Positions 15,528-29,249 of a DNA stretch of 64,000 nucleotides are shown here, one piece after another (position 1 is the first letter of the stretch; every line of letters begins with the position of its first letter). The notes below the pieces were generated by a model. It ran no database searches. It saw nothing but the letters and a program-made list of their open reading frames with translations, and was not told where the DNA came from. The DNA is taken from the NCBI RefSeq assembly GCF_009914755.1, contig NC_060928.1. One strand, given 5' to 3'. This DNA is from the human T2T-CHM13v2.0 reference genome, Homo sapiens. The translations under genes and the position numbers were made by a program.

Positions 15528-18500
15528 CTGGAGAAAGTTTGAGTGGTCTAAATTAAATAACAAACCAGCCACAACATTTCCTTAAACCAAAGCATAACCC
15601 AGAGAAAGACCCTAATTATCTTTGATTCTTTGAAGGCCAAGAGAGGTGGGGAAGCTGTAGAAGAAAAGCTGAATGCTAGCAGAGGATGATTCACAAAGAT
15701 TAAGGAAAGAAGCTGTCTTCATAACATAAAATACAAGGTGAAGCAAGTGCTGATGCAGAAACTGCAACAAGTTATTCAGAAGATCAAGCTAACATCATTT
15801 ATGAAAGTGGCTACACTATGCAAAAGATTTTCAATGTAGACAAAACAGTCTTATAATAGAAAAAGATGCTATCTAGGACATTCAGAGCTAGAAAGAAGTC
15901 AACGCCTGGCTTCAAAGCTTCAAAGGATAGGCTGACTCTGGAGCTCATGCAGCAGCTGGTGACTTTAGGTTGAAGTCAATGCTCATTTACCATTCTGAAA
16001 ATCCTAGGATCCTTAAAAATTATGCTAAATATATTGTGCTTGTGCTGTAGATATAGAAAAGCAAACCCTGGGTGAATGCACATCTGATTACAGCATGGTT
16101 TACTAAATATTTTAAGCCTGCTGTTGAGACCTAGTACTTAGAAAAAGATTCCTTTTCAAAGTATTACTACTCATTGACAGCTGTTCTGCCTATGGAGTAG
16201 CCATTCTTTATTCCTTTAGTTTCTTAATAAACTTGCTTTCATTTTACTCTGTGGATTCACCTTGAATTCTTTTTTGTGTGAGATCCAAGAACCCTCTCTT
16301 GGGGTCTGGATTTGGACCGCTTTCTGGTAATATCTTTCTGGCGAACCACAGAAGGGATGATACTGAAGAGACACCCGACCCAAAGGAAAATCATCTGTGT
16401 GAAACACCAATTGGCTAACTCCGGGTAAGTGGGATGAATTTACCCAGGTAAAAGATGGGACTGGATCCGAGGCCCAACCTAGGAAATTTAGAGTCTCTCC
16501 TAAGACAGAGAGAGTTAAAGGCCCCTCTTACTAAAAGCAAGGACACTTGACTGAACCTGGGTTTGAGACCCAACTTAGGGAGGTGAGAGTCCTTCCTAAG
16601 ATTTAGGGGATGAGAGGCCCCATTCAGTAAAGTCCCTCTTGGTTAACAACAGGTTTGGCACTATGGGATATTAATTGCTATTCTCTTTGGATTAATCTGT
16701 CTTTCACTCTTTGCTGACGGCTATGGGTGGCAGAATTAGGCATGTACAGGATCATGGGACATGGGGAGTTTTTCTCCCTAAAAGGGGAAATTTGAGAGTT
16801 GACGGGGCTGCTGGGAAAAATCCCTGTGTGACTGACAAGCAGCTGCCTAAACTTTTCAGTGTGGCTGCAGTGAATGGGTCTTTCTCTGGCCTCCCTGAGC
16901 TCCTAGACTTCCCCATCCCATTGCAGGCAATGCTTTTCTCCCTTTCCCTTCCTTTCTCTCTCTCTCATAAACAGTTATTTTTACCATTCATTCAAAGTTG
17001 AATGAATGAACTTTGAAAATCATTCAAAATTGAATGAATGGTAAAAATCATGGTTTATCTCCTCTGTAAAGTTCTGATTAATTGGAAAAAGGATTTGTGA
17101 GGCTAGCCTTAAACTGTAGCAAATCTGTTGTATTTTGTGCTATGAATTTGTCTTTCTGTATCTTTCTGTCAGAAAGAGGGGTACCTTAGGATAGAACAGG
17201 GGCTTAGGGCCCCATAAGCCCTCTGTTCAAGACAGCCCAGCAAACTGGTCAGTTATGTCCTTGGGAGCTTGACCTTGTAACCACGTGGCACTACTTTCTC
17301 TTGGTCTCTGCCATCTGGAGGACAGAAATTTGGGGGTTCATGAAATAGTCAGCCCTAAAAATTATCTTGCTAAAAGACTTCACAAGCTCAAAATTGGCTG
17401 CTCTAGACTCCTTCTGGGAAGAGCATTGGAAACTGCCCAATGCTGTAGCTCAGCAGCTAAAGTTTTGCCATTTTACGGGGGCAGCCTAGGTTCAATTTCT
17501 GGCTTAGGGAATGAGTCCTTTCTGGGTTGATACCTGCATGACATTTACCATTTGTTAATTTTCTTCCCCTCCAAAAACCATGTTGAATTGTCCTTTCTCT
17601 GAGCATATCGGAGGTTACCTTTAGTAAGGTTCAAACGCCAGAAATATTGGCTGTTTGGCCTGGCTAAAATCAGGTAATAAGAAATTTAAAAGTTTTTTTT
17701 TTAAGAGTGCTATGTTTAAAAGTCAGCTTAATTGAAAGTGGATATTCAAGCTCTAACAGCCTGAGGCTCCTTGGTAAAAAAAACTGAAGAGGCACCACAG
17801 ACCCCATTTTAGGAAAAACTTCTCTTTTCCTCATGAAATCCAAGAAATTAGAAGTGGATAAGAGCCCACTCAAAATCTAAGGCTCTGTTCTGATTTGCAT
17901 TGCATTATCTGACAACTTTAACTTTTGGGGGTGTCAGAAATTAGTTCACAAATTACTTCACATTATGAGAGAGCTTTGGTGTGTAATAACTAGGTAGGAA
18001 ATTTACTTTTGGGGATAGCTAATGGCAGTTATGGGGAAATACTAAGCTCTGCACATTTGATCAGAGAAGCATGCTCTTCGACACCTAGAAGTTATGGAAA
18101 TGTCCCCACCCGACCCCTACTGAGAGATAAGACTCCTGTGGGAGATGCATTGATTCCCTGTTTTAGGAGATCCAAGATCTGGTATAAAAATGGGACCCTT
18201 AAATTCTAGAAATCTGTTTTACCTCCCAACTGTGCCTGCTTATTAGGCCCTAGAAACTGTATGCTCTCCTGGCCCTGTTCCTCCAAGGGCTCCACTCTAA
18301 AGCCAGTAATCCAATTAAGAAACTGGTAAATGAAAAATCTTACAACTACTGAATCTTTTGTCTGTCTGGGTATTTATATATATTGTGTATGTGAAATATA
18401 AAAGAGCTTTGATTCATTGGTTTAAAATTAATAAGAGCTTAAATCAAGTATGTTATCAGAAAAATAAAAAGTGTAATGCCTTTTACTTCATGTAACATAT

Positions 18501-19897
18501 CTTTGGTAAATAAATAAAGTTTTAAAGATTATTGGTAAAATAAAAGTCTTCAAAATTTAGACATTTGGTCTAAATTAGGCAGGTGATGTATTAGTTTGCT
18601 AAATGCTTTAGGGTCATAAACTGATTCTTTGACTTTTCTCAATTATTCAGTTTACTTAGTTTGGAGCATCAGATTCTATAATAGATAAGGCCTGGGGTCA
18701 TGTGGAGAGCCTTGCCCTCTAGCTATGCGGGGAAGAGTCAGCTTTTATCTACACTTCTGTCTGATGTCATAGGCTCCACACCTGGTACATAATTACAATC
18801 ACTTATTAACCAAGTTTTTCACCAAAAGAAAAAGTTGCTAAGAGTTAACAGTGTAACACGTAGTTGAGACTACTAAGAAAACAGTTCTACATGCAAGGCC
18901 TATCAGGAAAGTAGAATGTACTTTTGGTAAAAGATTATAAGAAGACATGGGAATGTGAATTTCTTGTCTACATTTAGAGGGTTAAAGGATTGTTTTATGT
19001 GAGATAGAAAAATATATATAAAGGTTTGAACAAGTTGTGGAAAGTTTATAAAAAATTAATTGTAAAAGAGATTCTGCGTGCAAACATATTGGCTAAAGTT
19101 AAAGGGGTATTATTCAGTTCTTCCATAAATTGAACATAGAAATAAAAGCACAACAAGTGTTACTTACAGCACTGATCTGCTCTTTAAAAAAATTGTAAAA
19201 GGTTATAAAAGGTTTATAAGAACCTTACCTTATGGTCAAACTGATTAAGATTGAATATATTTGTCGACAAGGTTTTATTAAGAATTGAATTTGACATCAA
19301 TAATGCACTAACACAAAAGTGAAATTTGTATTATTTGGTATAAAAATGATACAGGAACTATTGTCAAATATTAAATGGTGTTTGGCTTTCTTTGGGCTGT
19401 ATTTGTATAAATATGTTATTGGTATGTATTCCAAAATAATGGGAAACTCCTATAATTCTGATAAGACACAGTGTATATTATCAGTAATAATTGTAATTGT
19501 TACATAAAATCATTGTATGCCACAGATGTAACCAAATTTCTTTGTCAATCATGTTTTTGACTATGGTTGCCCTAAGACATTTTGTCATTCACAGACAATT
19601 GTTGTCTTGTTTTGGTCCCCTTCAAAAGGAGGTTTTAAAATCAGCTACAGGAATTTGACAGGTGATCCTGAATGCAGGTTTCTGATAACATTGGAGATTA
19701 TAACAGTAAAATAGAGGAAAAAACTTAGAGGAATCTCAGGCACAGCTGAAATGTTCCTGAACATCAAACAGGGGTTAAACTGCATGGACTAAATTAAGAT
19801 AGAAGTCTGAAGTAATCTTTTTGACTCTTTGCTTAAAATGTTGCTGATCCTTTGTTTTGTTTTTCAGAGTTAAGGAAACTTTTGAGCTATAGACAGC

Positions 19898-20196
19898 TTT
19901 TTTTTTTTTTTTTTTGAGATGGAGTCTTGCTCTGTCACCCAGGCTGGAGTGCAGTGGCATGATCTCGGCTCACTGCAAGCTCCTCATCCCGGGTTCACGC
20001 CATTCTCCTGCCTCAGCCTCCTGAGTAGCTGGGACTACAGGCGCCCACCACCATGTCCGGATAATTTTTTGTATTTTTAGTAGAGACGGGGCTTCACCGT
20101 GTTAGCCAGGATGGTCTCAATCTCCTGACCTCGTGATCCACTCACCTGGGCCTGCCAAAGTGCTGGGATTACAGGCATGAGCCACTGCACCCGGCC
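19898..20196 (-). mobile_element. AluY inside MER41-int
   Basis: Diagnostics gcaagctcc, cacgccattctcc, gttagccaggatggtctc; perfect TSD TAGACAGCTTTT at 19890-19901 and 20197-20208. Confidence 0.95.
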
Positions 20197-27983: not shown

Positions 27984-27992
27984 TTCTAAGAA
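27984..27992 (+). promoter_or_regulatory. Candidate GAS/STAT site TTCTAAGAA in MER41 U3
   Basis: Matches TTCN3GAA at the position of the tandem GAS motifs described for MER41B; the second motif looks partly deleted. Confidence 0.4.
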
Positions 27993-29249
27993 ATGCCAGA
28001 AAACGCATGAATAATCCACCCCTTGTTTAGTATATAATCAAGAAATAACTGTAAAAATGGACAACCAACAGCCCCTAGGGCTGCTCTGTCTATGGAGTAG
28101 CCATTCTTTATTCCTTTATTTTCTTAATAAACTTGCTTTCACTTACAAAATAAAAATGTTACTACTTGTTGATAAGGCACCTGTCACCCAAGAGCTCTGA
28201 TGGAGATGCACAAGGAAATTAGTGTTATTTTCATGCCTGCTAATACAACACCCATTCTGAAGCCCATGGTTCAAAGACTAATTTCAACTTTCAAGTCTTA
28301 GTTTAAAAATACATTTTGTAAGGCTATGGCCACCATACAGAGTGACTCCTCTGGGATCTGGGCAAAGTAAATTTAAAACCTTCTGGAAAGGCTATACCAT
28401 TATAGATATCATTAGAACATTCATGATTCATGGGAAGATGTCAAAAGATGAACACAAACAGAAGTTTGAAAAAGGTTGATTCCATTCCTCATGAATTGAG
28501 GGGTTCAAGATTTCAGAAGAGGAAATAACTGCATGTATGGTGGAAACAGCAAAATAACTAGAATTAGAAGTGGGACCTGAAGATGTCTGAATTGCTAAAA
28601 TTTCATGATTAAACTTGAAAGGATGAGGAGTTGATTCTTGTGGATGAGCAAAGAAAGTGGTTTCTTGAAATGGGATTTACTCCTGGTGAAGATGCTGTGA
28701 ACACTGCTGAAGTAACAACAAGGGATTTCAAATATTAGATAAACTTAGATGATAAAACAGTTGTAGGGTTAGGGAGGATTAACCCCATTTTTAAAGAAGT
28801 TCTATTGTGGGTCAAGTGCTATCAAGCCACATCAGATGCCACAGAGAAATCTCATGAAAGGAAGGGTCAATCAATGTGGTTAATTTCATTGTTGTCTTAT
28901 TTTAAGAAATTTCCAGAGCCACCCCAACCTTTAGTAACCAAAATTCTGACTATTCAGCAGCCACCAACATCAAAGCAAGACCCTCCAGGAGAAAAAGAAG
29001 ACTCACTGAAAGCTCAAATGATTGTTAGCAGTTTTTTTTAGCAATTCAGTATTTTTAATTAAGCCATTTACGTTGTTTTATTCAGACATAATGCTATCGC
29101 ACACTTAATAGACTATAGTATAGTCTAAACATATTTTTTATGTACTGGGAAATCAAAAAAACTCATGTGACTCGCTTTATTGCAATCTTAGTTTTACTGC
29201 AGTGGTATGTAACCAAACCAAGCCATATTGCCAAGGTATGCCTTTATTA

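What the first reader, a model, noticed from the sequence alone, without database searches (positions are those of the whole stretch)
16158..28174. MER41 endogenous retrovirus apparently copied by L1 as a processed pseudogene
Seen: the left LTR starts at R (gctgttctgcctatggagtag, 16180) with no U3. The right LTR has U3 and R but ends ~14 nt after AATAAA, followed by an A-rich tail and no U5. The two ~65-nt R copies differ at 4 positions. The insert is flanked by a 22-bp duplication of Tigger1 sequence (aaagtattactactcattgaca / aaaatgttactacttgttgata, 17/22 identical; the CA/TG pair fits decay of one CpG) at a TTTC|AAA site. Established: integrase gives two complete LTRs and a 4-6 bp TSD, while R-U5...U3-R-poly(A) with a long TSD is the signature of the L1-mobilised HERV-W processed pseudogenes. 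Inference: a ~5.2-kb non-coding MER41 genomic RNA (length excludes the nested L1 and Alu) was reverse transcribed end to end by L1 ORF2p. I do not know this route to be well catalogued for MER41, and repeat annotation would show only two partial LTRs.
Basis: partly seen in the sequence, partly recalled or inferred. Interest (0 to 1): 0.8.

Follow-up and report, generated by a model that had tools for sequence, protein, structure and literature searches.

The report
L1-copied MER41 retrovirus transcript, one of many
This 12-kb insert is a DNA copy of an ancient endogenous-retrovirus RNA that the L1 retrotransposon pasted into the genome, and the same genome holds many sister copies made the same way, although reviews name HERV-W as the only human retrovirus family copied by L1.

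Summary
The left LTR piece starts at R (16180) with no U3. The right LTR has U3 and R and stops 13 nt after AATAAA (28144), followed by an 8-nt A-rich tail. The 22-bp flanks are a true target-site duplication: in 11 of 19 other copies of the flanking DDE transposon, the two flanks overlap by exactly 22 bp on a single 22-mer.

The L1 processed-pseudogene reading is supported, and the locus is not a one-off. Of 30 family loci sampled by their 5' leader, 12 start at this same base and 17 have U3. All 9 such loci whose 3' end was reached also stop at R; 6 have clear 9-18-bp duplications next to A-rich tails. A second sample of 3' ends gave 3 of 10 classifiable. Of 629 forward-strand exact copies of the last 19 nt of R, 60 run straight into an A run.

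Papers read call HERV-W the sole L1-mobilised HERV group. Seven full-text searches found nothing linking MER41 to this route.

The family names MER41 and Tigger1 are recalled, not tested.

The parts
15760..16157 (+). Left flank: old DNA transposon of the pogo/Tigger type. This is the target of the insertion.
   Evidence: 40 scored matches of 3743 first-look candidates in the genome; colinear with 19 other copies.
16158..16179 (+). Left copy of the 22-bp target-site duplication. It begins with AAA after TTTC.
16180..16244 (+). R of the 5' LTR piece. This is the first base of the insert. No U3 lies upstream.
   Evidence: 61/65 to the 3' R; same first base in 11 other loci.
16245..16332 (+). U5 of the 5' LTR piece.
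   Evidence: Matches the U5 of complete LTRs.
16339..16356 (+). Primer-binding-site-like stretch starting TGG. Its tRNA type is recalled, not tested.
   Evidence: read from the sequence.
16333..19899 (+). Retroviral interior, part 1. No Pfam domain was found in its open frames.
   Evidence: colinear with 7 other copies; none of the 12 plus-strand frames of 45 aa or more tested across the three interior parts (11 in parts 1-2, 1 of 40 aa or more in part 3) has a retroviral domain.
19900..20196 (-). Nested Alu, a later insertion, with a perfect 10-12-bp duplication at 19890-19899 and 20197-20206.
20197..20748 (+). Retroviral interior, part 2.
20749..27177 (+). Nested full-length L1, a later insertion of 6.43 kb.
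   Evidence: Transposase_22 E 2.6e-53, Exo_endo_phos, RVT_1; boundaries.
27178..27648 (+). Retroviral interior, part 3, with a purine tract at 27632-27644. About 245 bp near 27437 are absent compared with most copies.
27649..28079 (+). U3 of the 3' LTR. An A/T-rich TATA-like box at 28051-28057 lies 29 nt before the shared 5' end position.
   Evidence: U3 aligns to 17 complete 5' LTRs. The TATA reading is an inference.
28080..28144 (+). R of the 3' LTR, with AATAAA at 28126-28131. It ends at the poly(A) site and no U5 follows.
28145..28152 (+). Remnant of the A tail (6 A in 8 nt).
28153..28174 (+). Right copy of the 22-bp target-site duplication.
28175..28600 (+). Right flank: continuation of the same DNA transposon. 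The frame 28176-28298 carries a DDE_1 domain.
   Evidence: PF03184, E 1.2e-5..

Best explanation
A full-length, unspliced, polyadenylated transcript of a roughly 5.5-kb, apparently non-coding endogenous retrovirus was copied into DNA by L1 proteins acting in trans. The family is recalled as MER41/MER41-int.

The RNA started at the U3/R border of a source provirus, about 29 nt after an A/T-rich TATA-like box. It was cleaved 13 nt after AATAAA in the 3' LTR.

L1 endonuclease nicked the bottom strand of an old Tigger-type transposon at a TTTC|AAAG site, in what is now an STPG2 intron. The A tail primed reverse transcription to the cap. A second nick 22 bp away produced the 22-bp duplication.

The product reads R-U5-interior-U3-R-A(n), so no promoter stands in front of it. 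An Alu and a full-length L1 landed inside it later.

What is shown: the two truncation points, the true 22-bp duplication, and the same architecture in many sister loci. What is inferred: the role of L1, the transcription start and the poly(A) site.
For: This locus:
- R-U5 on the left, U3-R on the right, and an 8-nt A-rich tail.
- The 22-mer is single-copy in 11 of 19 uninterrupted copies of the target transposon, and the two flanks overlap by exactly 22 bp.
- Both window copies share an A at position 12, where 10 of the 11 other copies have G. That is a shared pre-insertion change.
- The duplication starts with AAA after TTTC. This fits the TT/AAAA motif described for HERV-W pseudogenes (PMC5016936).

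Sister loci:
- 12 of 30 loci sampled by 5' leader, counting this one, start at the same base with unrelated upstream DNA. 17 of 30 have U3 and 1 is otherwise truncated.
- Of the 11 sisters, the 3' end was reached in 9, and all 9 stop at positions 60-67 of the R-U5 query without U5.
- 6 of these 9 have clear 9-18-bp flanking duplications, 2 are partial and 1 shows none. A-rich tails are plain in 7 of the 9.
- Of 11 independently sampled 3' ends, 7 have U5, 3 end in R plus an A tail and 1 is unclassifiable.

Genome-wide:
- 60 of 629 forward-strand exact copies of the last 19 nt of R are followed within 0-3 nt by at least 5 A. The reversed-pattern control gave 0.
Against: - The A tail here is only 8 nt with 6 A.
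- The duplication copies differ at 5 of 22 positions, more than the R copies (4 of 65). The counts are too small to make this a conflict.
- The cleavage site TTTC|AAAG is near the consensus, not identical to it.
- No orthologous empty site or other primate genome could be examined.
- L1 involvement rests on hallmarks, not on a direct test.
- The 30 loci are the ones most similar to this copy, out of 40 scored from 378 first-look candidates. The 40% share may therefore be biased.
- Most of the roughly 109 poly(A)-ended sites found by pattern were not inspected.
Confidence: 0.92

Rival explanations
1. An ordinary integrase-made provirus later lost the U3 of its left LTR and the U5 of its right LTR through two separate deletions.
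For: Old proviruses often carry deletions. One sampled locus (L019/L037) does have a 5' LTR truncated at a different point together with a complete 3' LTR.
Against: - The 22-bp duplication abuts both truncation points exactly. Deletions would have removed the short integrase duplication and would not create a 22-bp one.
- The same two end points recur in 11 and 9 independent loci.
Confidence: 0.02
2. The RNA was copied and inserted by a route other than L1 target-primed reverse transcription. Examples are capture of a cDNA at a double-strand break, or endonuclease-independent L1 insertion.
For: The A tail is short and the cleavage site is not a perfect TTTT/AA.
Against: - Break capture and endonuclease-independent insertion usually give no long duplication (recalled knowledge).
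- Here the duplication is 22 bp. In this locus and in 6 sisters the duplication starts with an A run next to the tail.
Confidence: 0.04
3. The 17-of-22 match of the flanks is a chance or pre-existing internal repeat of the transposon, and not a duplication made at insertion.
For: The two copies are only 77% identical.
Against: - 11 of 19 uninterrupted copies hold the 22-mer once, and the flanks overlap by exactly 22 bp.
- Both window copies share a derived base.
Confidence: 0.01

Closest known systems
HERV-W (HERV17/LTR17) processed pseudogenes made by L1
   Same: The anatomy is the same: a 5' LTR starting at R, a 3' LTR ending at R, an A tail, a TT/AAAA-type site and a long duplication (PMC5016936, passages). 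As in HERV-W, both proviruses and pseudogenes exist in the family. Both families are placed in the HERVW9 supergroup (PMC4724089; PMC5753468).
   Different: - It is a different family. The LTR here is about U3 431 / R 65 / U5 88 nt. LTR17 has R at 256-326 of 780 nt.
- The element is about 5.2 kb, with no recognisable retroviral frame.
- Terminal branches in the leader tree have a median of 0.11 changes per site.
- The pseudogene share was 12 of 30 and 3 of 10 in my samples, against 135 of 213 for HERV-W (PMC5537654).
- The 22-bp duplication is longer than the 5-15 bp quoted for HERV-W.
Processed pseudogenes of cellular mRNAs
   Same: Cap-to-poly(A) copy, A tail, L1-type duplication and no promoter upstream.
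   Different: The template is a retroviral genomic RNA. The copy therefore carries a complete U3 promoter/enhancer at its 3' end.
Integrase-made proviruses of the same family
   Same: Same interior and same LTR sequence. They are interleaved with the pseudogenes in the leader tree.
   Different: They have complete U3-R-U5 on both sides: 17 of 30 5' ends and 7 of 10 classifiable 3' ends.
Retro-DNAs: DNA-transposon transcripts copied by L1 (PMC11195612, passages)
   Same: Another class of repeat mobilised in trans by L1, recognised by long duplications and A tails.
   Different: Those templates lack a promoter of their own and are few. This family supplies its own promoter and poly(A) signal.

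Membership tests
L1-made processed pseudogene of an endogenous retrovirus | The 5' LTR starts at R and lacks U3. | tested here: met
   The insert starts at 16180, the same base as in 11 other loci.
L1-made processed pseudogene of an endogenous retrovirus | The 3' LTR ends at the poly(A) site of R and lacks U5. | tested here: met
   It ends at 28144, 13 nt after AATAAA. Complete LTRs continue into U5 at this point.
L1-made processed pseudogene of an endogenous retrovirus | A poly(A) tail follows R. | tested here: inconclusive
   At this locus there are only 8 nt with 6 A. Sisters L033-L036, L040, L041, L065, L072 and L073 have plain tails.
L1-made processed pseudogene of an endogenous retrovirus | A long target-site duplication abuts both ends. 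| tested here: met
   22 bp. It is single-copy in 11 of 19 uninterrupted target copies.
L1-made processed pseudogene of an endogenous retrovirus | A TT/AAAA-type endonuclease site. | tested here: met
   TTTC|AAAG. This is near the consensus, not identical. The duplications of 6 sisters also start with an A run.
L1-made processed pseudogene of an endogenous retrovirus | An empty pre-insertion site in an outgroup species. | not testable with these tools
   No primate genomes are held. Paralogous copies of the target transposon served as stand-ins.
MER41 / MER41-int (Repbase/Dfam) | A match to the curated LTR and internal models. | not testable with these tools
No repeat library is available.
HERV-W (LTR17/HERV17) | LTR17 layout: R at positions 256-326 of a 780-nt LTR. 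| tested here: not met
   The LTR here is about 584 nt with U5 of 88 nt, against the figures in PMC5016936.
Tigger1 (pogo-type DNA transposon), the target | A DDE_1 transposase remnant and high copy number. | tested here: met
   PF03184 at E 1.2e-5 and 3743 first-look candidates. The subfamily name Tigger1 itself was not tested.

The most novel reading that the evidence does not exclude
This family is a second HERV group that L1 mobilised on a large scale, on a par with HERV-W. About a third of its interior-bearing loci, and about a tenth of the LTR copies that keep the last 19 nt of R intact, are L1-made retrocopies.

Each such copy carries a whole U3. 5'-truncated copies would look like solo LTRs that lack U5. 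If so, part of this family's dispersed LTR promoter/enhancer pool, which is known for interferon-inducible enhancers, was spread by L1 and not by retroviral integration.

This would overturn the repeated statement that HERV-W is unique among HERVs in this respect. It would also allow a comparison of two related families to ask what makes a retroviral RNA a good L1 template.
Probability: 0.5. Interest if true: 0.7.

Novelty: new member of a known kind. Interest (0 to 1): 0.55.

Why it matters
Reviews of human endogenous retroviruses say that only HERV-W transcripts were copied by L1 (PMC5537654). Authors have puzzled over why related elements in New World monkeys were not (PMC6995185).

A second, related family with dozens to hundreds of such copies gives a comparison set. 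It allows asking which RNA features or which period of L1 activity made this possible.

It also affects annotation and dating:
- These loci are not proviruses.
- Their two R copies were never identical LTRs, so LTR-LTR dating does not apply to them.
- They arrive without a 5' promoter but with an intact 3' U3.

If many apparent solo LTRs of this family are 5'-truncated retrocopies, then L1 helped to scatter a set of LTR enhancers that has been studied for its role in immune gene regulation.

Tried and rejected
Tools and data that were unavailable or limited:
The independent 3' sample is therefore only 11 loci. I left out the first row of the second-piece list because it is the 3' end of L015, already classed as a provirus. 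I also left out three rows already held as L032, L033 and L035.
"No retroviral domain" therefore rests only on open frames of 45 aa or more.
- Pavlicek 2002 (PMC155283) is not held, so I could not see whether that paper examined other families.

Ideas tested and dropped:
- Tree of the 629-bp leader: pseudogenes and proviruses interleave. The labels need 6 changes against a shuffled mean of 9.5, and 11-13 of 500 shuffles are as low. There is no single source lineage, and the tree is star-like with only 2 of 26 inner branches well supported.
- Pattern for one U5 continuation (57+45 hits). It covers only one U5 variant, so it cannot serve as a denominator.

Dating:
- Dating is loose. R plus duplication differ at 9 of 87 positions, while the terminal branch is 0.13.

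Literature:
- Searches found no paper linking MER41 to processed pseudogenes. For most hits I saw only the listing.
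Full report
**1. The observation**

I read both ends of the interval.
- The insert begins at 16180 with a 65-nt stretch that recurs at 28080-28144. The two match at 61 of 65 positions.
- On the left, this stretch is followed by about 88 nt that end in a TG..TA-type LTR end at 16332, and then by a TGG-initiated primer-binding-like stretch.
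- On the right, an LTR opens with TG at 27649, just after a purine tract. It runs through about 431 nt to the same 65-nt stretch.
- AATAAA lies at 28126-28131. Similarity to the left LTR stops at 28144, 13 nt later.
- Then come 8 nt with 6 A, and then a 22-mer (28153-28174) that matches the 22 nt just before the insert (16158-16179) at 17 of 22 positions.

The layout R-U5 ... U3-R, a short A-rich tail and a 22-bp flanking repeat is really there.

**2. Is the 22-mer a duplication made at insertion?**

I searched the window's own genome with the left flank (40 scored matches of 3743 first-look candidates). I then aligned both flanks to the 19 other copies returned.
- In 11 of 19 copies, the left flank aligns to its very last base, the right flank starts at window 28153, and the two overlap by exactly 22 bp.
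- Three more copies give overlaps of 20, 15 and 20 bp.
- Five have other insertions or deletions at that point.

Printed side by side, the 11 uninterrupted copies hold the 22-mer once, between the sequences that flank the window's two copies. Both window copies share an A at position 12 where 10 of the 11 have G, so this change predates the duplication. All 11 lack CG where the window copies differ as CA and TG, and 8 read CA.

A frame in the right flank carries a DDE_1 transposase domain (PF03184, E 1.2e-5). This fits a pogo/Tigger-type transposon. The name Tigger1 itself was not tested.

**3. Internal anatomy**

Seven sister copies align colinearly to the window. The segments are:
- 16180-19900: retroviral sequence.
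- About 19900-20196: an antisense Alu with a perfect 10-12-bp duplication.
- 20197-20748: retroviral sequence.
- 20749-27177: a plus-strand L1 of 6.43 kb, with Transposase_22 at E 2.6e-53, endonuclease and RVT_1.
- 27178-27437: retroviral sequence.
- A gap of about 245 bp compared with most copies.
- 27437-28144: retroviral sequence.

None of the 12 plus-strand open frames tested in the interior has a retroviral Pfam domain.

**4. The locus is one of a class**

I searched the genome with the 629-bp leader (42 matches, with 40 of 378 candidates scored). I compared the 30 returned loci with the window's U3-R and R-U5 pieces.
- 17 of 30 have U3 upstream of R.
- 13 of 30 do not, counting the window.
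- Of the 12 others without U3, 11 begin at the very same base as the window copy, and their upstream DNA is unrelated from locus to locus. Ten of these have a G just before that base, which is also the base preceding it in complete LTRs.
- The twelfth (L019) is cut at a different point.

I fetched 10 kb for each of the 12.
- In 9 of the 11 same-start loci a 3' LTR was reached. In all 9 it stops at position 60-67 of the R-U5 query, with no U5.
- In one locus no 3' LTR lies within 10 kb. In another the LTR is interrupted.
- L019/L037 has a complete R-U5 in its 3' LTR, so it is a damaged provirus. It serves as a contrast.

At the 9 ends:
- 6 have clear duplications abutting both ends: 17 nt (15/17), 18 nt (15/18), 15/15, about 17 nt, 13 nt (11/13) and 9/9.
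- 2 have partial or simple-sequence matches.
- 1 has an Alu in its flank and no visible duplication.
- A-rich tails are plain in 7 of the 9.
- The 6 clear duplications, like the window's, start with an A run.

**5. Independent samples**

Two smaller requests gave 11 short stretches.
- 7 continue into U5.
- 3 end in R followed by an A tail (L065, L072, L073).
- 1 is broken by another insertion.

As a genome-wide proxy, I counted the last 19 nt of R.
- The 19-mer occurs exactly 629 times on the forward strand and 611 times on the reverse strand.
- 60 of the 629 forward occurrences are followed within 0-3 nt by at least five A. The reversed-pattern control gave 0.
- Reverse-strand rows are redundant: 109 rows in all, and 29 distinct sites among the 64 listed.
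- Four listed sites coincide with loci I had already classed as this type.
- The remaining sites were not inspected, and the 19-mer may be shared with related LTR subfamilies.

**6. Relations among copies**

A maximum-likelihood tree of the leader from the 30 loci is star-like, with a median terminal branch of 0.11 and the window at 0.13. Only 2 of 26 inner branches are well supported. Pseudogene-type and provirus-type loci interleave: the labels need 6 changes against a shuffled mean of 9.5, and 11-13 of 500 shuffles are as low. Several source lineages therefore fed L1, in the same era in which proviruses were being made.

The window's 245-bp gap is shared by three other loci. One ends in a complete LTR and one in R plus an A tail.

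Dating is loose. R plus duplication differ at 9 of 87 positions. Depending on the rate used (0.45% per My in PMC6995185, or about 0.2% recalled), the copies are tens of millions of years old.

**7. Mechanism**

*Shown:*
- A common 5' end.
- A common 3' end 13-16 nt after AATAAA.
- A tails.
- Duplications of 9-22 bp that start with A runs.

*Inferred:*
- The common 5' end is the transcription start. It lies 29 nt after an A/T-rich TATA-like box at 28051-28057, which is also present in L063 and L065.
- The common 3' end is the poly(A) site.
- L1 ORF2p nicked the target, primed on the A tail and copied the RNA to its cap.

Two deletions cannot recur at the same bases in a dozen loci, and they cannot create a 22-bp duplication. 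Break capture or endonuclease-independent insertion would not be expected to give these duplications (recalled knowledge).

**8. Comparison with what is known**

The anatomy is that of HERV-W processed pseudogenes: R-U5 at the 5' end, U3-R at the 3' end, an A tail, a TT/AAAA site and a 5-15-bp duplication (PMC5016936, passages).

This is not HERV-W. LTR17 has R at 256-326 of 780 nt, whereas this LTR is about 584 nt with an 88-nt U5.

If the recalled name MER41-int is right, the family sits with HERV-W in the HERVW9 supergroup (PMC4724089; PMC5753468, passages).

What the papers say about L1 mobilisation of HERVs:
- Vargiu 2016 did not separate pseudogenes from proviruses.
- Gifford 2018 lists L1-mediated retrotransposition as a generic fate of ERVs without naming groups (PMC6114882).
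- Grandi 2020 found none for ERV-W-like elements of New World monkeys (PMC6995185).

Seven full-text searches found no paper that ties MER41 to this route. For most hits I saw only the listing. I read passages in PMC9148063, PMC10194239, PMC11359688, PMC11195612, PMC5775608 and one bioRxiv preprint. Pavlicek 2002 is not held. Repbase and Dfam notes could not be seen. Prior knowledge outside the library therefore remains possible.

**9. Verdict**

The locus itself is an ordinary member of its class.

The class is the interesting part. It is an apparently unreported second HERV family with many L1-made copies. The mechanism is known, so I file it as a new member of a known kind, with interest 0.55.

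Noticed in passing
window 27437; G000 C17:53848153-53848606, C19:48886747-48887197, C9:112205197-112205622: The window copy lacks about 245 bp of the 3' interior that most copies have. Three other loci align across the same gap. One of them ends in a complete LTR (L063) and one in R plus a long A tail (L065). The gap is therefore a lineage variant that was spread by both routes.
   Followed up: partly
L003, L006, L012, L017, L018, L022, L028, L030; L032, L034, relative to window 16323-16384: Many family copies carry a second copy, about 85 bp upstream, of the roughly 55-60-bp stretch that spans the U5 end and the primer-binding region. The window copy has this stretch once.
   Followed up: no
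L013 and L014 (G000 C23:61.67 Mb minus strand and 61.56 Mb plus strand): Two family loci about 105 kb apart on the same contig, in opposite orientation, have identical 629-bp leaders and identical alignments. They probably lie in the two arms of a large recent inverted duplication.
   Followed up: no
window 16960-17050: A short stretch that other copies do not align to. It contains a 21-nt direct repeat (16988-17008 and 17020-17040, 95%) and reads as an inverted repeat around it.
   Followed up: no
(genome-wide): The 3'-interior query drew 1256 first-look candidates against 378 for the 5' leader. This would fit frequent 5' truncation of L1-made copies, but first-look counts are not copy numbers.
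   Followed up: no
window 27984-27992: The retained 3' U3 has a TTCnnnGAA-type motif. This is the form recalled for STAT-binding GAS sites, for which LTRs of this family are known. The copy lies antisense in an STPG2 intron.
   Followed up: no
window 19890-20206 and 20733-27190: The nested Alu has a perfect 10-12-bp duplication. The nested full-length L1 has a decayed one of about 13 bp, inferred from overlaps of the other copies' alignments. Both insertions are later than the retroviral copy.
   Followed up: partly
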